Positions 17,211 to 30,470 of a DNA stretch of 64,000 bases are shown piece by piece. Positions within the stretch are counted from its first letter, which is position 1. Each line of letters opens with the position of its first letter. Origin of the DNA: Escherichia coli (GTDB taxonomy: Bacteria; Pseudomonadota; Gammaproteobacteria; Enterobacterales; Enterobacteriaceae). The notes under the pieces are model-generated. The model made no database searches and was not told the origin of the DNA. It worked only from the letters and a program-made list of their open reading frames with translations. Made by a program: the position numbers and the translations under genes. The stretch is from the NCBI RefSeq assembly GCF_029227855.1, contig NZ_CP074356.1; one strand, given 5' to 3'.

Positions 17211-18427
17211 AGGTCGGCTTCTTTTTACTGAAATTCCCGCTGTCTTCGGAAACCTTCGTCCTCAACCAAATCACTGCGTTTATTGATATGGGCTTTGAGG
17301 TGGAGATTGTCGCGCTGCAAAAAGGCGATACAGAGAACACCCACGCGGCATGGACGAAATACAACCTTGCCGCCAGAACCCGCTGGTTACAGGACGAACC
17401 TACGGGCAAAGTGGCGAAGCTGCGCCACCGCGTCAGCCAGACGTTACGTGGCATTCATCGTAAAAATACCTGGCAGGCGCTCAACCTCAAACGCTATGGT
17501 GCCGAGTCGCGGAACCTGATTTTGTCTGCCATTTGCGGCCAGGTCGCAACACCGTTTCGCGCCGATGTGTTCATCGCTCATTTTGGCCCGGCGGGGGTAA
17601 CCGCAGCAAAACTACGGGAACTGGGTGTCATTCGCGGCAAAATTGCCACTATCTTCCACGGCATTGATATCTCCAGTCGGGAAGTGCTCAACCACTACAC
17701 TCCCGAATATCAGCAACTGTTCCGCCGTGGCGACCTGATGCTACCGATCAGCGATCTTTGGGCCGGAAGGCTGCAAAAAATGGGCTGCCCGAGGGAAAAA
17801 ATTGCCGTATCGCGCATGGGCGTGGACATGACGCGCTTTAGCCCGCGTCCGGTGAAAGCGCCCGCAACGCCGCTGGAAATCATATCCGTCGCACGCTTAA
17901 CCGAGAAAAAAGGTCTGCATGTAGCGATTGAAGCCTGCCGTCAGTTGAAAGAGCAGGGCGTGGCATTTCGTTATCGCATCCTCGGCATTGGCCCGTGGGA
18001 ACGACGCCTGCGCACCCTCATCGAACAATATCAACTGGAAGATGTGGTAGAGATGCCGGGCTTTAAACCGAGCCACGAAGTGAAAGAGATGCTCGATGAC
18101 GCGGATGTTTTCCTGCTGCCTTCGGTAACGGGTGCGGATGGCGATATGGAAGGCATTCCAGTGGCGCTAATGGAAGCGATGGCGGTCGGCATTCCGGTGG
18201 TTTCTACTCTGCATAGCGGAATACCGGAACTAGTGGAGGCTGACAAATCCGGCTGGCTGGTGCCTGAGAACGATGCTCGCGCACTGGCACAACGTCTGGC
18301 GGCATTTAGCCAACTGGACACTGACGAACTGGCTCCGGTCGTCAAACGTGCGCGCGAAAAAGTCGAACACGATTTTAACCAGCAGGTGATTAATCGAGAA
18401 CTCGCCAGTTTGTTACAGGCTTTATAG
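17207..18427 (+). CDS. wcaL: Colanic acid biosynthesis glycosyltransferase WcaL (GT4)
   Basis: 406 aa ORF; start overlaps wcaK stop. Confidence 0.9.
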
Positions 18428-18437
18428 AGGAGAACGC

Positions 18438-19832
18438 ATGCCATTTAAAAAACTCTCCCGACGCACCTTCCTGACGGCAAGCTCGGCGCTTGCCTTCCTC
18501 CATACCCCTTTCGCCCGTGCACTTCCTGCCCGAGCAAGCGTTAACATTAACGATTACAATCCACACGACTGGATTGCTTCATTTAAACAAGCCTTCAGCG
18601 AAGGGCAAACGGTCGTCGTGCCTGCCGGATTGGTTTGCGACAATATCAACACCGACATCTTCATTCCTGCAGGTAAAACGTTACACATCCTTGGAAGCCT
18701 GCGCGGCAACGGCAGAGGGCGATTTGTCTTACAGGACGGCAGCCAGGTGACAGGGGAGGAGGGCGGCAGTATGCATAACATCACCCTGGATGTGCGTGGT
18801 TCTGACTGCACCATCAAAGGGCTGGCGATGAGCGGCTTTGGTCCGGTAACGCAGATTTATATCGGCGGCAAAAACAAACGGGTCATGCGCAACCTGACCA
18901 TCGATAACCTGACCGTTAGCCACGCTAATTACGCCATCTTACGCCAGGGATTTCATAACCAGATTATCGGTGCCAACATCACCAACTGTAAGTTCAGCGA
19001 CTTACAGGGCGACGCCATTGAATGGAACGTGGCGATTAACGACCGTGATATTTTGATATCCGACCACATCATCGAGCGCATCAACTGTACCAACGGCAAA
19101 ATCAACTGGGGCATCGGCATAGGCCTTGCGGGGAGTACTTATGATAATAACTACCCGGAAGACCAGGCAGTGAAAAACTTTGTCGTGGCGAATATCACGG
19201 GATCGGATTGTCGACAGTTGATCCATGTTGAAAATGGTAAACATTTTGTTATTCGTAATATCAAAGCCCGCAATATCACGCCGGATTTCAGTAAGAAAGC
19301 AGGTATTGATAACGCCACAGTTGCTATTTATGGTTGTGACAACTTTGTGATTGATAATATTGAAATGATTAATAGTGCCGGGATGTTAATCGGCTATGGG
19401 GTAATTAAAGGCAAATATCTCTCGATACCGCAGAATTTCCGGGTGAATAATATTCAACTGGATAATACTCATCTTGCTTATAAATTGCGCGGCATTCAAA
19501 TCTCCGCCGGGAATGCTGTCTCCTTTGTGGCGCTGACTAACATTGAGATGAAGCGTGCCTCGCTTGAGCTACACAATAAACCGCAACACCTTTTTATGCG
19601 TAATATCAAGGTGATGCAGGAATCCGCAGTTGGACCCGCATTGAGCATGAACTTCGACATGCGCAAAGACGTTCGCGGCGTGTTTATGGCGAAAAAAGAA
19701 ACACTGCTATCTCTTGCAAATGTTCATGCGGTGAATGAAAAAGGACAAAGCTCGGTCGATATCGACAGGATTAATCACCATATTGTTAATGTGGAAAAGA
19801 TTAACTTTAGATTGCCGGAACGGAGAGAGTAG
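18438..19832 (+). CDS. wcaM: Colanic acid biosynthesis protein WcaM (twin-arginine-type signal, predicted beta-helix)
   Basis: 464 aa ORF; N-terminus [15 protein letters not shown] resembles a Tat signal; last gene of the cluster. Confidence 0.9.
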
Positions 19833-20006
19833 ATTTGCGACCATTCCTGGAAAAATGGAGCCATACTTAGGAACAATGCTACTGCAATCCACAACGAAGC
19901 GGCGTAACATTACAAGTAATTCAGTAATCAATTCAGGGTAATTGATGCTGGCGAAAAAAATCGAACAAGCTATAATTCAGCAACCATTTTACAGGTGGAT
20001 GAAATA

Positions 20007-20900
20007 ATGACGAATTTAAAAGCAGTTATTCCTGTAGCGGGTCTTGGGATGCATATGTTGCCTGCCACTAAGGCGATTCCCAAAGAGATGCTACCCATCG
20101 TCGACAAGCCAATGATTCAGTACATTGTTGACGAGATTGTGGCTGCAGGGATCAAAGAAATCCTCCTGGTAACTCACGCGTCCAAGAACGCGGTCGAAAA
20201 CCACTTCGACACCTCTTATGAATTAGAATCTCTCCTTGAGCAGCGCGTGAAGCGTCAACTGCTTGCGGAAGTGCAGTCCATCTGTCCTCCGGGCGTGACC
20301 ATTATGAACGTGCGTCAGGGCGAACCTTTAGGTTTAGGCCACTCCATTTTATGTGCACGACCTGCTATTGGTGACAACCCATTTGTCGTGGTGCTGCCAG
20401 ACGTTGTGATCGACGACGCGAGTGCCGACCCGCTGCGTTACAACCTTGCTGCCATGATTGCGCGCTTCAACGAAACGGGCCGCAGCCAGGTGCTGGCAAA
20501 ACGTATGCCGGGTGACCTCTCTGAATACTCTGTCATCCAGACCAAAGAGCCGCTGGACCGTGAAGGTAAGGTCAGCCGCATTGTTGAATTTATCGAAAAA
20601 CCAGATCAGCCGCAGACGCTGGACTCAGACATCATGGCCGTTGGCCGCTATGTGCTTTCTGCCGATATTTGGCCGGAGCTAGAACGCACTCAGCCTGGTG
20701 CATGGGGACGTATCCAACTGACAGATGCTATTGCCGAACTGGCGAAAAAACAGTCCGTTGAAGCCATGCTGATGACCGGCGACAGTTACGACTGCGGTAA
20801 AAAAATGGGTTATATGCAAGCGTTCGTGAAGTATGGACTACGCAACCTGAAAGAAGGGGCGAAGTTCCGTAAAGGGATTGAGAAGCTGTTAAGCGAATAA
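20007..20900 (+). CDS. galF: UTP-glucose-1-phosphate uridylyltransferase regulatory subunit GalF
   Basis: 297 aa from [30 protein letters not shown]; matches recalled GalF. Confidence 0.95.
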
Positions 20901-21196: not shown

Positions 21197-21336
21197 TCTA
21201 GTTCAATCCGAGTAAATTAAAAATAATAGTTTTGGAAAAATTGTCTTTATAATGTTAACAAAGCAAGAGTAGGTAATACATATCGTTTTGACATGTATTG
21301 CACTTAAAGAAAACATATCAATTAAATTATCATACT

Positions 21337-22362
21337 ATGCTTATTTACAATACAATATTTGTCTTTTTATCATTTCTTGCACTTTTAGATTTAAGTCATA
21401 AAAAAAATTTGTTATTTTTTTTATTTCCTTGTTTTATATTACTACTGTTAACTGCTATTCGTGGTAATGGAGGAGATGATTTTTATGTGTATGAAAAATA
21501 TTTTAACGCTCTTCCTAATGAAATTTTTAACTATGGATATGGTTATTATAGTTTAAATATGTTTGTTAAAAATTTTGGAGAGTATCCTTTTTTTATTATC
21601 ATTTCATCAATAATATGCATAACTCTTCAGGCAATTTTTATTTATCGTGAGACTGAAAAACCAACTCTGGTTTTGTTTTTATTTTATTCAACTAGCTTTT
21701 TATGGTTGGATTTTATTTTAATTAGGCAGTCAATTTCCGTTGGTTTTTTTATTTTGGCAATATCATTTTTCAAAAATAATAAAAAAATTTTTGCCTGTCT
21801 GTTTTTGATTCTATCTTCATTATTTCATGAGACCGCTATTTTTGCTGGAGTAGTTTTTTATATTTTATACAGAGCCGAGAAGGCAGGTTTTCTTTTTACA
21901 ATTGGCTCGGTATTAATTATTGCACCATTTTTATCTGATATAATCACTATCATAAATGATATGACGATAAAAAATAATAATATAACTCTCTATCTGGAGC
22001 AGCGTACCTTACCAAGCATTGCAAATGTAATTGAGTTAACAATAGCATTTGTTGCATTTTATATAATTAATAAAAATTCCGTGTTTAGAGAGAGTAATGA
22101 GTATAAAATATATAAAAGTATACTATATTCTTCACTATGCATACTATTATTGTCTTATACAATCCCATCATTGGCTAGATTCCTAGAATTTTTTCGTTTT
22201 TTTTACTTCATTTTAGTAGTTAGAATGCTAATGCAATTTAATGTGAGAAGTAGATATCTTTTTTTTGTAATTATACTAGCGTACTGTTTTATGAGACTTA
22301 ATAGCTTCATAAATCAATTTGATTCTGGTTTTGATTATATTTATAATGGAAAAATACTGTGA
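21337..22362 (+). CDS. wzy: Putative O-antigen polymerase Wzy (EpsG-like polytopic membrane protein)
   Basis: Very hydrophobic AT-rich ORF; N-terminal RGNGGDDFYVYEKYF resembles the EpsG/Wzy family; ATG at 21337 chosen over the TTG at 21298. Confidence 0.55.
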   Translation: MLIYNTIFVFLSFLALLDLSHKKNLLFFLFPCFILLLLTAIRGNGGDDFYVYEKYFNALPNEIFNYGYGYYSLNMFVKNFGEYPFFIIISSIICITLQAIFIYRETEKPTLVLFLFYSTSFLWLDFILIRQSISVGFFILAISFFKNNKKIFACLFLILSSLFHETAIFAGVVFYILYRAEKAGFLFTIGSVLIIAPFLSDIITIINDMTIKNNNITLYLEQRTLPSIANVIELTIAFVAFYIINKNSVFRESNEYKIYKSILYSSLCILLLSYTIPSLARFLEFFRFFYFILVVRMLMQFNVRSRYLFFVIILAYCFMRLNSFINQFDSGFDYIYNGKIL

Positions 22363-23228
22363 CTATATTATTTTCTGTTATTACTCCTACCTATAATAGG
22401 GCAGATGAGTTAAGCTCATTGTTCAAAAGTCTTAATAATCAAGAGGGTATCGAATTCGAATGGGTGATAATTGATGATGGTTCTGAAGATCATACACAAC
22501 AACAAGTTAATGACTTCAAAAAACATAATAAAAACATCACAGATATAAAATATTTTTATCAAGAGAATAAAGGTAAAAATTCTGCTGTAATTAGAGGGAT
22601 TCAGAATGCTTCCGGCGATTATATTGTGGTGATTGATAGCGATGATTATTTATTGGATGATGCTTTAATAAGAGTAAAAAATATATTAGATGAAGAGAGT
22701 GTTAATGGCGATGATAAAATAATTGGCATTTCAGGTGTTAAAGTTAAAAGTGATTTCACACCTGTAAGTTATATTAGCAACTCTTCGGCATTGCGAATGA
22801 GTCATTATGAGTGGTTTTATAAGTTTCAGCGGTTAGGTGATCGGATTGACTTTTATAAAGCCCGAGTGCTTAAAGAGAAAATATTTAATGCATTTCCAAA
22901 GGAAAAGTTTATTACAGAAGACGCATATTGGTTGGACCTCGTTGGGGAAAAAATTTTCATAAATGAACCGTTATTAGTAATAAAATATTTAGAGGGAGGG
23001 CTTAGTTCAAGTTACTCATTACTCCTGCGAAACAGTCCTTTTGGAACATCATATTATTATTATATTCTATTAATTAATGCTGATAATTTTAAAACAAAAC
23101 TTAAAGCATCATTATTGATGATGTACTATATATTTGTTACCATATTAAAAAATAGTAATATAGTAATTGGGTTATTGTCACTCATGTTATTTCCAATCTT
23201 ATGTATAATAAAATTCTTTCGAAGCTAA
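22359..23228 (+). CDS. Glycosyltransferase family 2 (O-antigen)
   Basis: 289 aa; SVITPTYNRADEL and DSDD motifs typical of GT2; GTG start overlapping the wzy stop. Confidence 0.75.
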   Translation: MTILFSVITPTYNRADELSSLFKSLNNQEGIEFEWVIIDDGSEDHTQQQVNDFKKHNKNITDIKYFYQENKGKNSAVIRGIQNASGDYIVVIDSDDYLLDDALIRVKNILDEESVNGDDKIIGISGVKVKSDFTPVSYISNSSALRMSHYEWFYKFQRLGDRIDFYKARVLKEKIFNAFPKEKFITEDAYWLDLVGEKIFINEPLLVIKYLEGGLSSSYSLLLRNSPFGTSYYYYILLINADNFKTKLKASLLMMYYIFVTILKNSNIVIGLLSLMLFPILCIIKFFRS

Positions 23229-24406
23229 GAAACACTATTCTTCCTTGTTTCACTCTAGGAACGTCGACGATTTTTTTCTTTGCGATAGGTTTCTTCTTTG
23301 GTATAAATGAAAAATCTGATTTTATATTATTTACGATTACTTTACTTTCAACCATTGGAACTATTCTTCAAATTTCTTGGTATGGATTGTTACCTCGTTT
23401 GAGTTCGAGTTCAAGCTTAAAATTTTTAGGTTATATTATTTCTAATGGTTTTATCTACTGTTTGATCATAAATACCCTACCATTTGTGATTTTAACTCTG
23501 AACTTTACAAACTTTTTTTTTGCAGGGTGTCTCTACTCTTTATTTTTCCAACTGCATCAGTATCTTAAGAATGTTTTTGTTTATCTTGGGCGGCTTAAAG
23601 CATTTTATATTTTTGATGCCATCGGCTATGCCATATGTGTTATAAGTATTACTGTGTTCCAAAAATATCTATTACATTCAAACCCTCAGGATTTATTTGT
23701 TCTGCTTTCGTTATGTTGGCTTTTAATAGTAATTGGTGAGGTCGTACATCTTAAACTATATATTAATTATGACATATCTGTAAAGCCTGTTTATGTATGT
23801 ATTATTCCAACATGGAAAACAAGGATTGCAAACAGTGGTTTTATTGTGAAAGATCTTTTAACTGCGTATGCGCTTAATATACTTGCGCCGGTAGGCGGTT
23901 TAACTATATATTCATACGCAAGTAAGATTTCAACAGCTGTTTTTCAATTATTCTCTCAATATAAAGTAAATGCTTGGGTGGGCAGCATAAGAAAAAAAAG
24001 GTTAAGTGAAGTAGAATACGGTGATATAAAAAAAGTGTCATTATCTTCTTCAATTGATTTTTGTATTTTTCAGATCGTTGCATGGCTTTGTATCTTACCT
24101 ATTATATTATATAATGGCACAAATATAAATATTGAATGGTATGTATTAAGTATTATTACTGGTGGATTACTATACTTGATACAATCAATGGAACAGCCTT
24201 ATGCTAGATTTATTTATATGTCACGACATTTTACCGATATTGCCATCGCAGATGGAATAAATTTTATTATTTATATGGTTTTCTTTTCATATGGATTGTT
24301 AATGTTAAATGTATATTATCTATTTTTAGGTATTATATTAGCTCAATTATGTTCACTAGTTACTTATTCTTTATTTTGCAAGAGGTTGTTTAGGAATGAT
24401 ACCTAA
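23201..24406 (+). CDS. wzx: Putative O-antigen flippase Wzx (polytopic membrane protein)
   Basis: 401 aa hydrophobic ORF with many predicted TM segments; position within O-antigen cluster; the Wzx/Wzy assignment between the two membrane proteins is inference. Confidence 0.5.
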   Translation: MYNKILSKLRNTILPCFTLGTSTIFFFAIGFFFGINEKSDFILFTITLLSTIGTILQISWYGLLPRLSSSSSLKFLGYIISNGFIYCLIINTLPFVILTLNFTNFFFAGCLYSLFFQLHQYLKNVFVYLGRLKAFYIFDAIGYAICVISITVFQKYLLHSNPQDLFVLLSLCWLLIVIGEVVHLKLYINYDISVKPVYVCIIPTWKTRIANSGFIVKDLLTAYALNILAPVGGLTIYSYASKISTAVFQLFSQYKVNAWVGSIRKKRLSEVEYGDIKKVSLSSSIDFCIFQIVAWLCILPIILYNGTNINIEWYVLSIITGGLLYLIQSMEQPYARFIYMSRHFTDIAIADGINFIIYMVFFSYGLLMLNVYYLFLGIILAQLCSLVTYSLFCKRLFRNDT

Positions 24407-25052
24407 AATAATACATTACTGTTGGTTCGGGGGCGGGGATAAACCTGCTTTAGTTAAAAAATGTATGGGGACATGGGAAAAAGTCTTGCCTGGTTGGGAT
24501 ATTATTGAATGGAACGAAGATAATTCGCCAGTATCAGTTCCTTATGTAAAAAATGCGTTAGAAGATAAACGATATGCATTTGCTGCTGATTATGTAAGAT
24601 TCTATGCGCTAAAAACCATGGGAGGAGTTTATCTTGATACTGATATGGAATTGATCAAAGATATTTCTCCGCTTTTGAATAATAAATTCTTTACAGCGAA
24701 AGAATCAGAGGAGCTTATTAATGCAGCAATAATGGGGAGTGAAAAAGATGGGAGATTTGTCAATTTAGTAATCCAAGAATTACAATTGCGCACAGGACAT
24801 ACTTACGAATCTATACCAAAAATACTTACTGATATATTTAATACAGGAAATGGATTTAAAGATGAAACAACCATTTATGATAAGGAATATTTTTATCCTT
24901 ATAATCCCTTTGATAATAAACGAAATGAAGTTAAACAACTTTTCTATTGTGATATAACTCCTCATACTTATGCCATTCATCACTGGCAACAAAGTTGGCA
25001 CTATACATTTCTTGAACGGGTTATTAACAGAATAAGGATGCTTATAAAGTGA
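24396..25052 (+). CDS. Glycosyltransferase, GT32-like sugar-binding family (DXD motif)
   Basis: 218 aa; IIHYCWFGG N-terminus and YLDTDME motif. Confidence 0.7.
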   Translation: MIPKIIHYCWFGGGDKPALVKKCMGTWEKVLPGWDIIEWNEDNSPVSVPYVKNALEDKRYAFAADYVRFYALKTMGGVYLDTDMELIKDISPLLNNKFFTAKESEELINAAIMGSEKDGRFVNLVIQELQLRTGHTYESIPKILTDIFNTGNGFKDETTIYDKEYFYPYNPFDNKRNEVKQLFYCDITPHTYAIHHWQQSWHYTFLERVINRIRMLIK

Positions 25053-25819
25053 GTGGAAATAAATTAATAAGCATAATTATGGCATCAAATAAAATAGATG
25101 AGTTTCTACCTCTGGCAATAAACTCAATTCTTGAACAAACATATCAAAATATCGAAGTGATTTTTGTTGCTAATGGTGATAAAGCTCACTGTATTAGTTT
25201 GTATATAAAAAATTTTTTTAAAGATGAGCGAATCAAAATTTATGAAACACCAATAGGCCAACTATCACATGCGCTTAACCTCGCTATTTCTAACGCATCG
25301 GGTGATTATATTGCCCGCATGGATGCTGATGACATTAGTTTACCTGAGCGATTAACTAAACAGTTGGAATATTTAAGGTCACATAATTTAGATATGGTAG
25401 GTTCGGATATAATTCACATAGATACAAATGGAGAAGTTATTGGGATTAAACATTATCCCAAAGGGTTAAATAAAATTAACAAACAATTGTATTTTAGGAA
25501 TACTTTTTCGCATAGCACTATACTAATCAAAAAAAAAATACTCATTTCAGCGAGAGGCTACAATGCTGGATTTAATTCAGAGGACTATGATCTCTGGTTA
25601 AGATTAAGACGGAAGAATATCAAATGGGATAATATGGAGGAATGCCTCTTAAAATATCGTATACATAGTGCATCTACACAAAGGAAGAGATTGGGTTACG
25701 CCGAAGTCGCGGGTTATTCTCTACGTGAATTTTTATTACGTTTCTCATTTATTGGTATTTTTTCTGTTTTAATTCATATTGTTAAAGTTTATATTAAATC
25801 ATCTTCTCATGAAGAATGA
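25049..25819 (+). CDS. Glycosyltransferase family 2 (O-antigen)
   Basis: 256 aa; GT2-like N-terminus and DADD motif; GTG start overlapping the upstream stop. Confidence 0.7.
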   Translation: MSGNKLISIIMASNKIDEFLPLAINSILEQTYQNIEVIFVANGDKAHCISLYIKNFFKDERIKIYETPIGQLSHALNLAISNASGDYIARMDADDISLPERLTKQLEYLRSHNLDMVGSDIIHIDTNGEVIGIKHYPKGLNKINKQLYFRNTFSHSTILIKKKILISARGYNAGFNSEDYDLWLRLRRKNIKWDNMEECLLKYRIHSASTQRKRLGYAEVAGYSLREFLLRFSFIGIFSVLIHIVKVYIKSSSHEE

Positions 25820-26010
25820 TTTATATTTTAGGATAATTAACTATTTAAATTAGAATCATTTGAGCAAACTTAGGTAACTCTATATAATACACAGCATTGC
25901 AAATGAGTAACATATTGGAATAGCCATTCAATGGTAATATTACAAATTGCTTTAATAATAATGGATCATTTAGCTATGGTGCAATATTTTCTTCTTGCGG
26001 AATTTTACCC

Positions 26011-27129
26011 ATGAAAATACTTCTAATAGGAAACCTCTCTGATACTATTGTATTATTCAGAGAGAAGTTAATAAGAGAGTTGATTAAAAAAAATATCACG
26101 GTTTATACATTAACGATGGATTCTAATCAAGAAAACTTCAACATCATTGCCAGCTACGGGGCCAAACCTGATTCATACTCTTTTTCTCGTTCAGGTACAA
26201 ATCCTTTTTCTGATATTTGGGATACATACAAATTAAATAAAAAAATAAAAAAAATAAAACCTGACGTTGTTCTTTCTTTTTTTCCAAAACCTGTTATTTA
26301 TGGTTCTTTAGCTGCTAAAATAGCAGGGGTGAAAAAAATATTTAGTCTCTTGGAAGGACTTGGTTTTTGCTATACGAATAATTCTAGTCCAATTAGTCTC
26401 AAAAGGAAGATATTAAAATGTATACAAACAATGCTATACAGAATTAGCTTGCCATTATGTAATAAAGTTTTTTTCTTAAACAAGGATGATTTTAATGATC
26501 TCATTATTGATAATAAAATAACCATAAAGAATTATGAAATAATTGGTGGAATTGGTGTTAATTTAGAAGAGTACAGTTATAAGCAACCAAAGATTGATAA
26601 AATACATTTTGGGATGGTTTCGCGATTACTAGTCGAGAAAGGTATTCGCGAATTTGTTTTGGCCGCGAGCCAGGTGAAAAAAAAATTTCCTGAGGTCGAA
26701 TTTAGTATTGCTGGCGCAATTGATGATAATCCTGGTGGTATAACCGAAGATGAGATAAAAAAATGGGAATCAGAGGGGGTTGTCAAATTTTTAGGTCAAG
26801 TTTCTAATGTTAAAAGTTATTTATCTAATATCTCTGTTTTCGTTTTGCCATCTTACCGAGAAGGCGTACCAAGAAGTACTCAAGAAGCGATGGCTATTGG
26901 GCTTCCAATAATTACAACTAATGTTCCTGGTTGTCGTGATACAATTATCAATATGGTAAATGGAATCATGATCCCACCATTTGATATTCAGTCTCTAGCG
27001 GACGCAATGGTATTTTTTATACAAAACCCTCAGAGTATAACAATAATGGGTAGAGAAAGTAGAATAATTGCAGAGAAAAAGTTTAATGAAATAGAAGCCG
27101 CGAATAAATTACTTAAATTAATAATCTAA
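26011..27129 (+). CDS. Glycosyltransferase family 4 (GT-B fold, O-antigen)
   Basis: 372 aa; C-terminal EGVPRSTQEAMAIGLPII resembles the GT4 EX7E region. Confidence 0.75.
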   Translation: MKILLIGNLSDTIVLFREKLIRELIKKNITVYTLTMDSNQENFNIIASYGAKPDSYSFSRSGTNPFSDIWDTYKLNKKIKKIKPDVVLSFFPKPVIYGSLAAKIAGVKKIFSLLEGLGFCYTNNSSPISLKRKILKCIQTMLYRISLPLCNKVFFLNKDDFNDLIIDNKITIKNYEIIGGIGVNLEEYSYKQPKIDKIHFGMVSRLLVEKGIREFVLAASQVKKKFPEVEFSIAGAIDDNPGGITEDEIKKWESEGVVKFLGQVSNVKSYLSNISVFVLPSYREGVPRSTQEAMAIGLPIITTNVPGCRDTIINMVNGIMIPPFDIQSLADAMVFFIQNPQSITIMGRESRIIAEKKFNEIEAANKLLKLII

Positions 27130-29760: not shown

Positions 29761-30470
29761 TGCACAGAAAACCCCCAGCTAGGCTGGGGGTTCCGGAAAG
29801 CTTTCAGCTTTGAGCCAGTTATTAAAACCCCTTTTGATTTGTTAAAACACTTTGCGGTCTGGCAACTGCAAGTGTCAAACAAGAAATCAAAAGGGGGTCC
29901 CAATGGGGAACGAAAAGAGCTTAGCGCACACCCGATGGAACTGTAAATATCACATAGTTTTTGCGCCAAAATACCGAAGACAGGTGTTCTACAGAGAGAA
30001 GCGTAGAGCAATAGGCAGTATTTTGAGAAAGCTGTGTGAGTGGAAAAGCGTACGGATTCTGGAAGCTGAATGCTGTGCAGATCATATCCATATGCTTGTG
30101 GAGATCCCGCCCAAAATGAGCGTATCCGGCTTTATGGGATATCTGAAAGGGAAAAGCAGTCTGATGCTTTACGAGCAGTTTGGTGATTTGAAATTCAAAT
30201 ACAGGAACAGGGAGTTCTGGTGCAGAGGGTACTACGTCGATACGGTGGGTAAGAACACGGCGAAGATACAGGATTACATAAAGCACCAGCTTGAAGAGGA
30301 TAAAATGGGAGAGCAGTTATCGATTCCCTATCCGGGCAGCCCGTTTACGGGCCGTAAGTAACGAAGTTGGATGCAAATGTCAGATCGTGTGCGCCTGTTA
30401 GGGCGCGGCTGGTAAGAGAGCCTTATAGGCGCATTTGAAAAACCTCCGGCTATGCCGGAGGATATTTATT
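29761..30470 (+). mobile_element. IS200-type insertion sequence (IS200/IS605 family), boundaries approximate
   Basis: About 0.7 kb with a single Y1 HUH transposase ORF; left-end hairpin acccccagctaggctggggg and right-end hairpin cctccggctatgccggagg; no terminal inverted repeats, as expected for IS200. Confidence 0.75.
29903..30361 (+). CDS. tnpA: IS200 transposase TnpA (Y1 HUH)
   Basis: 152 aa from MGNEKSLAHTRWNCKYHIVFAPKYRRQVFY; HIHMLVEIPP (HUH) motif; essentially the recalled Salmonella IS200 TnpA. Confidence 0.92.
   Translation: MGNEKSLAHTRWNCKYHIVFAPKYRRQVFYREKRRAIGSILRKLCEWKSVRILEAECCADHIHMLVEIPPKMSVSGFMGYLKGKSSLMLYEQFGDLKFKYRNREFWCRGYYVDTVGKNTAKIQDYIKHQLEEDKMGEQLSIPYPGSPFTGRK

What the first reader, a model, noticed from the sequence alone, without database searches (positions are those of the whole stretch)
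18438..18536. Twin-arginine-type signal at the N-terminus of WcaM
The N-terminus [33 protein letters not shown] has an SRRxFL motif followed by a hydrophobic stretch and an AxA-like cleavage site. This suggests export of a folded beta-helix protein to the periplasm.
Basis: partly seen in the sequence, partly recalled or inferred. Interest (0 to 1): 0.2.

Follow-up and report, generated by a model that had tools for sequence, protein, structure and literature searches.

The report
Known Tat export signal on WcaM
The last gene of the E. coli colanic-acid capsule cluster, wcaM, starts with a genuine twin-arginine (Tat) export signal that probably sends a folded beta-helix enzyme to the periplasm, but this is already in published lists of Tat substrates, so the finding is correct and ordinary.

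Summary
Window 18438-18536 (+) encodes [33 protein letters not shown], the N-terminus of a 464-aa ORF that is WcaM (NCBIfam equivalog, 1023.7 bits), the last gene of the wza-to-wcaM colanic-acid cluster.

- **Conservation.** In 117 orthologues R8 and R9 are invariant, and S/T7, F11, L/I/V12, A/V26 and A28 are 96-100% conserved. The rest of the signal drifts.
- **Resemblance to known Tat signals.** A weight matrix built from 22 other E. coli Tat signals scores WcaM at 19.4 bits, inside the range of known substrates and far above every other ORF in the window.
- **Structure.** AlphaFold2 leaves residues 1-27 disordered and folds residues from about 31 to 464 as a right-handed beta-helix.
- **Published predictors.** TatP 1.0 and TATFIND both already call WcaM a Tat substrate, so this is not new.

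Corrections and additions:
- The conserved peptidase site is A26-R27-A28 (cut at 18521|18522).
- The generic Tat profile models are sub-threshold, but they also miss AmiA, AmiC and TorA.
- I could not read the primary in vivo evidence for Tat dependence.

The parts
18427..18432 (+). Shine-Dalgarno-like GAGGAG, 5 nt upstream of the wcaM ATG. It overlaps the wcaL stop codon TAG (18425-18427), which suggests translational coupling.
   Evidence: Sequence read directly; wcaL ORF ends at 18427.
18438..18455 (+). n-region of the signal peptide, residues 1-6 (MPFKKL). Its length and sequence vary among orthologues.
   Evidence: mean majority fraction 0.56.
18456..18473 (+). Twin-arginine motif S7-R8-R9-T10-F11-L12, matching the consensus S/T-R-R-x-F-L-K. 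The K position is T13 here and is K in the Enterobacter-type orthologues (SRRHFIK).
   Evidence: R8 and R9 100%, S/T7 99%, F11 98%, L/I/V12 100% in 117 orthologues. The best PSSM position is residue 8.
18474..18506 (+). h-region, residues 13-23 ([11 protein letters not shown]). Together with T10-L12 and the c-region up to A26 it forms a 17-residue uncharged run. It is moderately hydrophobic and contains Ser, Thr and His.
   Evidence: Best 10-residue Kyte-Doolittle mean 1.73, within the Tat range and below the Sec range.
18507..18521 (+). c-region, residues 24-28 (PFARA). It has a helix-breaking Pro at -5, the signal peptidase I site A26-x-A28 and a basic R27 at -2. The predicted cut is between A28 and L29 (18521|18522).
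   Evidence: A28 99% and A/V26 96% conserved. TatP cleavage call on the identical peptide (PMC7549933). pLDDT is below 50 for residues 1-27.
18522..18536 (+). Residues 29-33 (LPARA): a variable linker at the predicted mature N-terminus with net charge +1.
   Evidence: Positions 29-33 are poorly conserved, with majority fractions of 0.31-0.47. Other E. coli alleles have ARQ. The modelled beta-strand begins at residue 32.
18522..19829 (+). Predicted mature WcaM (residues 29-464): a right-handed parallel beta-helix homologous to the phage colanidase tailspike gp150. Conserved acidic and polar residues include D192, E195, H263 and E265.
   Evidence: AF2 pLDDT 92.6. Foldseek match to 6e0v, TM 0.76, E 6.7e-16. 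phmmer E 9e-25. Invariant columns in alignment A1.

Best explanation
The first 28 codons of wcaM (18438-18521) encode a cleavable twin-arginine signal peptide.

**Shown:**
- a positively charged n-region;
- an SRRTFL motif at the boundary between the n- and h-regions;
- a weakly hydrophobic h-region;
- a c-region, PFARA, with a small-x-small site.

**Inferred mechanism:**
- WcaM folds in the cytoplasm into its beta-helix.
- The RR motif is recognised by TatBC.
- The folded protein is moved across the inner membrane by TatA, driven by the proton-motive force.
- Signal peptidase I cuts after A28 and releases soluble mature WcaM (residues 29-464) into the periplasm.

**Inferred from homology:** in the periplasm WcaM probably acts on colanic acid as a glycan-cleaving enzyme related to phage colanidase tailspikes. 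The role could be trimming, chain-length control or clearing stalled polymer, as proposed for Pantoea WceF. It is unlikely to be a cytoplasmic biosynthetic enzyme.
For: **Sequence and identity.**

**Selection on the motif.** RR is invariant and S/T-RR-x-F-[LIV] is 98-100% conserved in 117 orthologues. The rest of the signal has a mean majority fraction of 0.56-0.68, against 0.87 for the mature protein.

**Distant relatives.** In the search of cluster representatives, 28 of those of at least 330 aa have a beta-helix that starts where it does in WcaM.
- Nine of these 28 carry Tat-like signals with PSSM of at least 10: eight share 29-36% identity with WcaM and one (P0121) shares 71%.
- Two more of the 28 carry RR motifs.
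- None of the 39 relatives with long, phage-like N-terminal extensions has one.
- The three relatives I looked up lie in or beside polysaccharide gene clusters.

**Resemblance to known Tat signals.** The PSSM score is 19.4 bits, inside the leave-one-out range of 5.8-30.8 for known Tat signals. Hydrophobicity is Tat-like, not Sec-like. R27 in the c-region and a +1 early mature region are classic Sec-avoidance features (established knowledge; charges computed).

**Not a lipoprotein.** There is no Cys before residue 67.

**Structure.** Residues 1-27 are disordered and the rest is a confident beta-helix.

**Published predictions and use.** TatP 1.0 calls the identical peptide (PMC7549933). A TATFIND-based survey lists wcaM as positive (PMC3027627). 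WcaM is listed or used as a Tat substrate or Tat signal in PMC8262268, PMC9604234 and PMC6965018.

**Functional inference.** Sequence and fold homology to the Phi92 colanidase tailspike. 246 phage records hold a WcaM-like domain, and among the 15 listed many are annotated as colanidase tailspike or colanic acid degradation protein. Pantoea WceF is an analogue: a Tat signal on a tailspike-like stewartan glycosidase (PMC7949094).
Against: - **Generic Tat profile models are sub-threshold.** Pfam PF10518 scores 12.7 bits on the full protein and 17.2 on a 40-aa fragment, against a cut-off of 22.7. TIGR01409 scores 12.1 against 16.7. This is weak counter-evidence. SufI, AmiA, AmiC, MdoD, FhuD, YcbK and TorA fail PF10518, AmiA, AmiC and TorA fail TIGR01409, and the two Sec controls get no hit at all.
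- **The motif is slightly off consensus.** The consensus Lys after F-L is Thr here.
- **I could not read any direct in vivo evidence.** No localisation in a tat mutant and no RR-to-KK substitution data were accessible. The reporter-fusion study (Tullman-Ercek et al. 2007) is not in the held library.
- **The fold does not require Tat.** Some distant family members carry Sec-type or lipoprotein-type signals: P0185, P0191, P0202 and P0231.
- **The enzyme role is inferred from homology only.** Salmonella laboratories use a wcaM deletion as a colanic-acid-deficient strain (PMC8171120), which fits a pure trimming role less easily.
Confidence: 0.85

Rival explanations
1. The peptide is a working signal peptide, but WcaM is exported mainly or partly by the Sec pathway. 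The RR pair would then simply be part of a positively charged n-region.
For: The n-h-c architecture is shared by Sec and Tat signals. PMC8262268, citing Tullman-Ercek 2007, notes that AmiA, AmiC and SufI show some flexibility towards Sec even with their native Tat signals. The generic Tat HMMs are sub-threshold. Distant homologues with Sec-like or lipoprotein-like signals exist.
Against: An n-region needing only positive charge would tolerate K. Instead RR is invariant in 117 of 117 orthologues, and the flanking S/T, F and L/I/V are 98-100% conserved. The h-region hydrophobicity of 1.73 lies below the whole Sec control range of 1.92-3.08. R27 in the c-region and the +1 early mature region disfavour Sec (established knowledge). 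TatP and TATFIND both call it Tat.
Confidence: 0.1
2. The N-terminus is a Tat-inserted (or Sec-inserted) uncleaved signal anchor, so WcaM stays tethered to the periplasmic face of the inner membrane next to the Wzx/Wzy/Wzc machinery.
For: Uncleaved Tat signal anchors are known in other proteins (established knowledge, for example Rieske proteins). A location beside the polymerase and flippase would make sense for a chain-trimming enzyme. Cleavage has not been shown experimentally in anything I could read.
Against: A small-x-small site is conserved at the end of the h-region (A28 99%, A/V26 96%), with a helix-breaking Pro at -5. The h-region is short and only weakly hydrophobic for a stable transmembrane helix. 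TatP predicts cleavage after A28.
Confidence: 0.04
3. It is a chance RR-containing hydrophobic N-terminus on a cytoplasmic biosynthetic protein, or the start codon is wrongly called.
For: The family name 'colanic acid biosynthesis protein' suggests an enzyme of the cytoplasmic pathway. The strict motif alone would be expected by chance in roughly 1 in 10,000 N-termini (my rough estimate from amino-acid frequencies).
Against: No alternative start codon exists before residue 61, and residue 61 lies inside the folded domain. A good Shine-Dalgarno sequence precedes ATG 18438. The motif is conserved across 74 distinct N-termini and in homologues at about 30% identity. None of 5000 shuffles reached the observed score. 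The beta-helix fold and its nearest relatives are extracytoplasmic glycan-degrading proteins.
Confidence: 0.01

Closest known systems
E. coli / Salmonella WcaM as a listed Tat substrate (TatP and TATFIND predictions; Tat-substrate tables)
   Same: It is the same protein. The 28-residue signal [28 protein letters not shown] is identical to that listed for E. coli PCN033 (PMC7549933). wcaM is positive in both species in PMC3027627.
   Different: The only difference is an allele-specific Q33A change, which creates a second A-x-A five residues downstream of the conserved site.
Cofactor-less E. coli Tat substrates of the cell envelope (AmiA, AmiC, SufI/FtsP, MdoD, MepK/YcbK)
   Same: They have an S/T-RR-x-[FL]-[LIV] motif, signals of 26-34 residues, similar h-region hydrophobicity and an A-x-A end, with no obvious cofactor to explain Tat use. 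Like AmiA and AmiC, WcaM scores below the generic Tat HMM cut-offs.
   Different: The mature domain is an unrelated beta-helix. [quoted passage not shown] I saw no such phenotype for WcaM; a wcaM deletion gave no virulence defect in ExPEC (competitive index 0.89, not significant).
Pantoea stewartii WceF (stewartan cluster; crystal structure; PMC7949094)
   Same: It is encoded in a Wzx/Wzy-type acidic exopolysaccharide cluster of an enterobacterium. It has a 28-residue N-terminal Tat signal and a right-handed beta-helix with a phage-tailspike-like fold. It is active on its own polysaccharide, and knock-outs give longer chains.
   Different: WceF is 736 aa and a trimer, whereas WcaM is 464 aa with unknown oligomeric state. 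WceF was not recovered as a sequence homologue in the PDB profile search, nor among the top 50 Foldseek matches. It is therefore an analogue rather than a family member.
[quoted passage not shown]
   Same: The beta-helix is clearly homologous: phmmer E 9e-25 over WcaM 163-349, profile E 5e-73, Foldseek TM 0.76. The motifs GDAIEWNV and HVENGK are conserved. Its substrate, colanic acid, is the product of the cluster that encodes WcaM.
   Different: The phage proteins have N-terminal virion-attachment domains and C-terminal extensions, and no signal peptide; 0 of 39 relatives with long N-terminal extensions have a Tat-like N-terminus. WcaM has a Tat signal in that position. Enzymatic activity of WcaM has not been shown.

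Membership tests
Twin-arginine (Tat) signal peptide | S/T-R-R-x-F-L-K-type motif at the boundary between the n- and h-regions, within the first ~35 residues | tested here: met
   S7-R8-R9-T10-F11-L12 matches the TatP regular expression RR.[FGAVML][LITMVF] and the stricter [ST]RR.F[LIVM]. The consensus K is T13 here.
Twin-arginine (Tat) signal peptide | The twin arginines are functionally constrained, that is, conserved where the rest of the signal drifts | tested here: met
   R8 and R9 are 100% conserved in 117 orthologues. The rest of the signal has a majority fraction of 0.56-0.68, against 0.87 for the mature part. RR signals recur in homologues at 29-41% identity.
Twin-arginine (Tat) signal peptide | Uncharged h-region of at least 13 residues after RR, less hydrophobic than Sec h-regions | tested here: met
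   The uncharged run is 17 residues. The best 10-residue Kyte-Doolittle mean is 1.73, against 1.86 +/- 0.28 for the Tat set and 2.56 +/- 0.27 for the Sec set, whose minimum is 1.92.
Twin-arginine (Tat) signal peptide | c-region with a small-x-small signal peptidase I site, often with a basic residue (Sec avoidance) | tested here: met
   P24-F-A26-R27-A28, with A28 99% and A/V26 96% conserved. R27 is basic. The early mature region carries +1.
Twin-arginine (Tat) signal peptide | Score above the curated cut-off of the generic profile models (Pfam PF10518, NCBIfam TIGR01409) | tested here: inconclusive
   WcaM is below both cut-offs: PF10518 scores 12.7 or 17.2 against 22.7, and TIGR01409 scores 12.1 against 16.7. 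The criterion also fails for accepted Tat substrates. Seven of nine controls fail PF10518, and AmiA, AmiC and TorA fail TIGR01409. The Sec controls OmpA and MalE give no hit to TIGR01409.
Twin-arginine (Tat) signal peptide | Positive call by dedicated predictors (TatP, TATFIND) | tested here: met
   I did not run these predictors. Published TatP 1.0 output on the identical 28-aa peptide is positive (PMC7549933), and a TATFIND-based table marks wcaM 'y' in E. coli and Salmonella (PMC3027627). My own leave-one-out PSSM gives 19.4 bits, within the known range.
Twin-arginine (Tat) signal peptide | Export depends on TatABC in vivo and is blocked by RR-to-KK substitution | not testable with these tools
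   This needs experiments. The reporter-fusion study of E. coli Tat signal peptides (Tullman-Ercek et al. 2007) could not be read.
WcaM (NCBIfam NF007517 / TIGR04004; Pfam PF27800) | Full-length score above the equivalog cut-off | tested here: met
   1023.7 bits against 808, and 972.8 against 794.6. Homologues carry PF27800:WcaM.
WcaM (NCBIfam NF007517 / TIGR04004; Pfam PF27800) | Last gene of the wza-to-wcaM colanic-acid cluster, upstream of galF | tested here: met
   Annotation of a record that differs from the window at 3 of 40,000 bases: wcaL, wcaM, galF, then the O23 O-antigen cluster.
Phi92 gp150-type colanidase beta-helix | Sequence and fold homology of the beta-helix domain | tested here: met
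   phmmer E 9e-25, profile E 5e-73, Foldseek E 6.7e-16 with TMq 0.76.
Phi92 gp150-type colanidase beta-helix | Tailspike architecture (N-terminal virion-binding domain, C-terminal extension) | tested here: not met
   WcaM has a signal peptide in place of an N-terminal adaptor domain and ends at residue 464, whereas gp150 aligns on to about residue 623. WcaM is a cellular paralogue, not a tailspike.
Phi92 gp150-type colanidase beta-helix | Cleaves colanic acid | not testable with these tools
   Only conservation of candidate acidic and polar residues (D192, E195, H263, E265) across cellular and phage members was seen.
Bacterial lipoprotein signal (lipobox) | L-x-x-C lipobox with Cys at +1 | tested here: not met
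   No Cys in the first 66 residues.

The most novel reading that the evidence does not exclude
WcaM is a host-encoded colanidase exported by Tat. It would be a periplasmic beta-helix glycanase that shares ancestry with phage colanidase tailspikes. It would trim, set the chain length of, or release colanic acid during Wzx/Wzy-dependent assembly, and it would use Tat because it folds (perhaps oligomerises) before export. Tat-signal beta-helix glycanases (WcaM, WceF) would then be a recurrent accessory module of enterobacterial exopolysaccharide clusters, and phages and hosts would have exchanged this domain. The homology is visible in annotations ('wcaM superfamily', 'colanic acid degradation protein'). 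I found no paper in the held library that shows WcaM activity or localisation.
Probability: 0.45. Interest if true: 0.4.

Novelty: already known. Interest (0 to 1): 0.12.

Why it matters
The Tat signal itself adds nothing new, because WcaM has been on E. coli and Salmonella Tat-substrate lists for about two decades.

Its value is contextual. It places WcaM outside the cytoplasm, so the name 'colanic acid biosynthesis protein' probably hides a periplasmic enzyme that modifies the glycan. Combined with the homology to phage colanidase tailspikes, this gives a directly testable function for the one gene of the colanic-acid cluster whose role I believe is still unassigned. It also links the host capsule machinery to the evolution of phage depolymerases.

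Tried and rejected
- **Generic Tat HMMs as a membership test.** WcaM is sub-threshold for PF10518 and TIGR01409. I calibrated with accepted Tat substrates and Sec controls and found the cut-offs too strict to be decisive, so I do not count this as a refutation.
- **Primary papers I could not obtain.** Tullman-Ercek 2007 (PubMed id, PMC id and DOI), Craig 2013 and Schwarzer 2012 on Phi92 are not held. I cannot say whether the WcaM signal was classed as Tat-specific or as Tat/Sec-promiscuous.
- **Literature searches on WcaM function.** Searches for WcaM with beta-helix, hydrolase or colanidase, and for WcaM alone, found no functional or localisation study. A search linking tat mutants to mucoidy found nothing useful.
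- **Promoter and terminator scan of 18200-20100.** Counts were at shuffle expectation, so it was uninformative.
I rejected it in favour of A28. A31 and A33 are not conserved, the ARA at 31-33 occurred only in this allele among the sequences compared, and the confident model already has a beta-strand starting at residue 32.
- **Lipoprotein signal.** Rejected because there is no Cys.
- **WceF as a true homologue.** Rejected because it did not appear in the PDB profile search or among the top 50 Foldseek matches. I kept it as a functional analogue.
Full report
**1. The observation**

It opens a 464-codon ORF, 18438..19832. ATG 18438 is the first start codon after the upstream in-frame stop. It sits 5 nt downstream of GAGGAG (18427-18432), which overlaps the stop codon of the preceding gene. 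The next possible in-frame start is at codon 61, inside the folded domain.

The protein is WcaM. NCBIfam equivalog NF007517 scores 1023.7 bits against a cut-off of 808, and TIGR04004 scores 972.8 against 794.6. The DNA around wcaM (window 18200-20000) matches 4657 of 5426 complete E. coli genomes, where it is annotated as wcaL and wcaM. One genome, strain JNEC-KY178, differs from the window at only 3 of 40,000 bases. Its annotation shows the canonical order: wza-wzb-wzc-wcaA…wcaL-wcaM, then galF, then an O23-type O-antigen cluster.

**2. Is the motif more than chance?**

I built a position weight matrix from 22 other E. coli Tat signal peptides, with sequences taken from Table 2 of PMC7549933 and WcaM left out.
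- WcaM scores 19.4 bits with the RR at residue 8.
- Leave-one-out scores of the known signals span 5.8-30.8 bits.
- The 106 ORFs of at least 100 aa in all six frames of the window average -10.2 +/- 6.9, and the next best scores 9.8.
- None of 5000 shuffles of WcaM's first 40 residues reached 19.4.

The h-region is Tat-like. Its best 10-residue Kyte-Doolittle mean is 1.73, against 1.86 +/- 0.28 for the 22 Tat signals. Twelve classic Sec signals give 2.56 +/- 0.27, with a range of 1.92-3.08.

Other features also fit:
- The n-region carries +4.
- The c-region has a basic R27.
- The first five mature residues carry +1.
- There is no Cys before residue 67, so this is not a lipoprotein.

**3. Evolutionary test**

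Among the 120 closest cluster representatives (74-98% identity), every full-length protein keeps RR.[FGAVML][LITMVF] in its first 40 residues, across 74 distinct N-terminal sequences. The one exception is an obvious wcaJ-wcaM fusion.

In a MAFFT alignment of 117 orthologues:

| Position | Conservation |
|---|---|
| R8, R9 | 100% |
| S/T7 | 99% |
| F11 | 98% |
| L/I/V12 | 100% |
| A/V26 | 96% |
| A28 | 99% |

The remaining signal positions have a mean majority fraction of 0.56-0.68, against 0.87 for the mature protein. The signal therefore evolves fast, except at the residues a Tat signal and a signal-peptidase site need.

An exhaustive search of 1.84 billion cluster representatives found 190 relatives. 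I split those of at least 330 aa by where the beta-helix starts:
- **Helix starts as in WcaM (28 proteins).** Nine have Tat-like N-termini with PSSM of at least 10: eight share 29-36% identity with WcaM and one (P0121) shares 71%. Two more have RR motifs. Four have Sec-type or lipoprotein-type signals.
- **Long N-terminal extension, looking like phage tailspikes or fibres (39 proteins).** None has a Tat-like N-terminus.

Three RR-bearing relatives that I looked up lie inside or beside polysaccharide gene clusters.

**4. Structure**

AlphaFold2 on a 36-sequence alignment gives mean pLDDT 92.6 and pTM 0.89. Residues 1-27 are below pLDDT 50, and confident beta-strands run from residue 32 to the C-terminus.

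The best PDB match by Foldseek is 6e0v, the 'colanidase tailspike protein gp150 of Phage Phi92' (E 6.7e-16, TMq 0.76). It is followed by polygalacturonases, alginate epimerases and lyases, and the HK620 and Sf6 tailspikes. The relationship also shows in sequence:
- phmmer gives E 9e-25 over WcaM residues 163-349.
- A family profile gives E 5e-73.
- Shared motifs include GDAIEWNV and HVENGK.
- D192, H263 and E265 are invariant, and E195, N197 and D202 nearly invariant, across cellular and phage members.

In the phage collection, 246 records hold a WcaM-like domain. Among the 15 listed, many are annotated 'colanidase tailspike' or 'colanic acid degradation protein'.

**5. Where is the cleavage site?**

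This allele has two A-x-A sites: A26-R27-A28 and A31-R32-A33. Four observations favour the first:
- Only the first is conserved among orthologues.
- Other E. coli alleles read ARQ at 31-33.
- Published TatP output on the identical 28-mer places the end at A28.
- The modelled fold already uses residues 32-36 as a strand.

I therefore put the cut at 18521|18522. This is an inference and has not been shown.

**6. Profile-HMM tests**

Pfam TAT_signal (PF10518) scores 12.7 bits on the full protein and 17.2 on a 40-residue fragment, against a gathering score of 22.7. TIGR01409 scores 12.1 against 16.7. Taken at face value the test is not met.

I calibrated with the same models:
- **PF10518:** SufI 16.4, AmiA 18.5, AmiC 13.2 and MdoD 21.3 are all below the cut-off. 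FhuD, YcbK and TorA get no hit at all. Only CueO and NapA pass.
- **TIGR01409:** AmiC scores 11.8, TorA 16.4 and AmiA gets no hit. SufI, CueO and NapA pass. The Sec controls OmpA and MalE get no hit.

WcaM therefore behaves like the cofactor-less Tat substrates, which these generic models under-call. The result is inconclusive, not negative.

**7. What is already known**

- TatP 1.0 predicted WcaM, with the identical signal, among 25 Tat substrates of an ExPEC strain. A wcaM deletion had no virulence defect there (competitive index 0.89, not significant) (PMC7549933).
- A TATFIND-based comparison marks wcaM positive in both E. coli (b2043) and Salmonella (STM2099) (PMC3027627).
[quoted passage not shown] - WcaM was over-produced as a Tat substrate in PMC9604234.
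- Its signal was used as a 'non-chaperone-binding Tat signal sequence' in PMC6965018.
- From my own memory, unverified here, the systematic reporter-fusion study of E. coli Tat signals (Tullman-Ercek et al., J Biol Chem 2007) included WcaM. I could not obtain that paper, so I cannot say whether its signal was Tat-specific or promiscuous.

The finding is correct, but it is textbook-level annotation.

**8. Mechanism**

- **Shown:** the signal-peptide anatomy, its selective conservation, the beta-helix fold, the homology to a phage colanidase, and the position in the cluster.
- **Inferred:** WcaM folds in the cytoplasm, is recognised through SRRTFL by TatBC, is translocated by TatA, and is cut by signal peptidase I after A28. 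The mature protein then acts in the periplasm on colanic acid.

The closest functional precedent is Pantoea stewartii WceF. It is encoded in the related stewartan cluster, carries a 28-residue Tat signal, has a tailspike-like beta-helix, cleaves stewartan, and gives longer chains when deleted (PMC7949094). WceF is an analogue, not a detectable homologue.

Two points argue against a pure trimming role or leave it open:
- Salmonella laboratories use a wcaM deletion as a colanic-acid-deficient strain (PMC8171120).
- Tat is not intrinsic to this fold, because some distant relatives carry Sec-type signals.

**9. Verdict**

- Observation: confirmed.
- Interpretation: supported (confidence about 0.85 for a cleavable Tat signal).
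- Novelty: already known.
- Interest: low (0.12).

The most novel reading not excluded is that WcaM is a Tat-exported host colanidase that shares ancestry with phage tailspikes. I give this a probability of about 0.45 and moderate interest.

Noticed in passing
window 18522-19829 (mature WcaM): [quoted passage not shown] 246 phage records hold a WcaM-like domain, and among the 15 listed many are annotated as colanidase tailspike or colanic acid degradation protein. A host 'biosynthesis' gene and phage depolymerases against the same polymer therefore share a beta-helix domain.
   Followed up: partly
window 18534-18536 (codon 33, GCA): This allele has Ala33 where the other E. coli WcaM sequences seen have Gln (ARQ). 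The change creates a second A-x-A motif five residues after the conserved peptidase site. Among E. coli genomes, only two records were at least 99% identical to the query.
   Followed up: partly
protein P0060 (761 aa, ENA assembly): This is an in-frame fusion of the N-terminal ~400 residues of WcaJ to WcaM from about residue 98. It implies a deletion that removes wzxC, wcaK, wcaL and the WcaM signal peptide in some E. coli. It is seen on 5 contigs.
   Followed up: no
proteins P0004 (437 aa) and P0007 (422 aa); These E. coli WcaM variants have internal in-frame deletions of 27 and 42 residues inside the beta-helix, around residues 236-282, while keeping an intact Tat signal. They may be inactivated alleles.
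   Followed up: no
window 21298-27000: The O-antigen region downstream of galF has a very low G+C content (0.298, against 0.53 for the cps genes). In the genome that differs from the window at 3 of 40,000 bases it is annotated as an O23-family wzy/wzx cluster. wcaM itself (0.473) is lower in G+C than the rest of the cps cluster.
   Followed up: no
window about 29903-30361 (locus L001 31704-32162): An IS200C-family transposase gene lies between gndA and ugd in the genome that differs from the window at 3 of 40,000 bases.
   Followed up: no
L002 8001-9344 (GCA_000737915.1): A WcaM homologue at 41% identity (P0123, signal SRRNFF followed by an unusually aromatic h-region) is encoded on the opposite strand to its colanic-acid-like cluster (WcaD, WcaJ-like, gmd/fcl/gmm). 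It sits between gnd and the wcaJ-like gene. The association with the cluster is kept although the operon arrangement is not.
   Followed up: no
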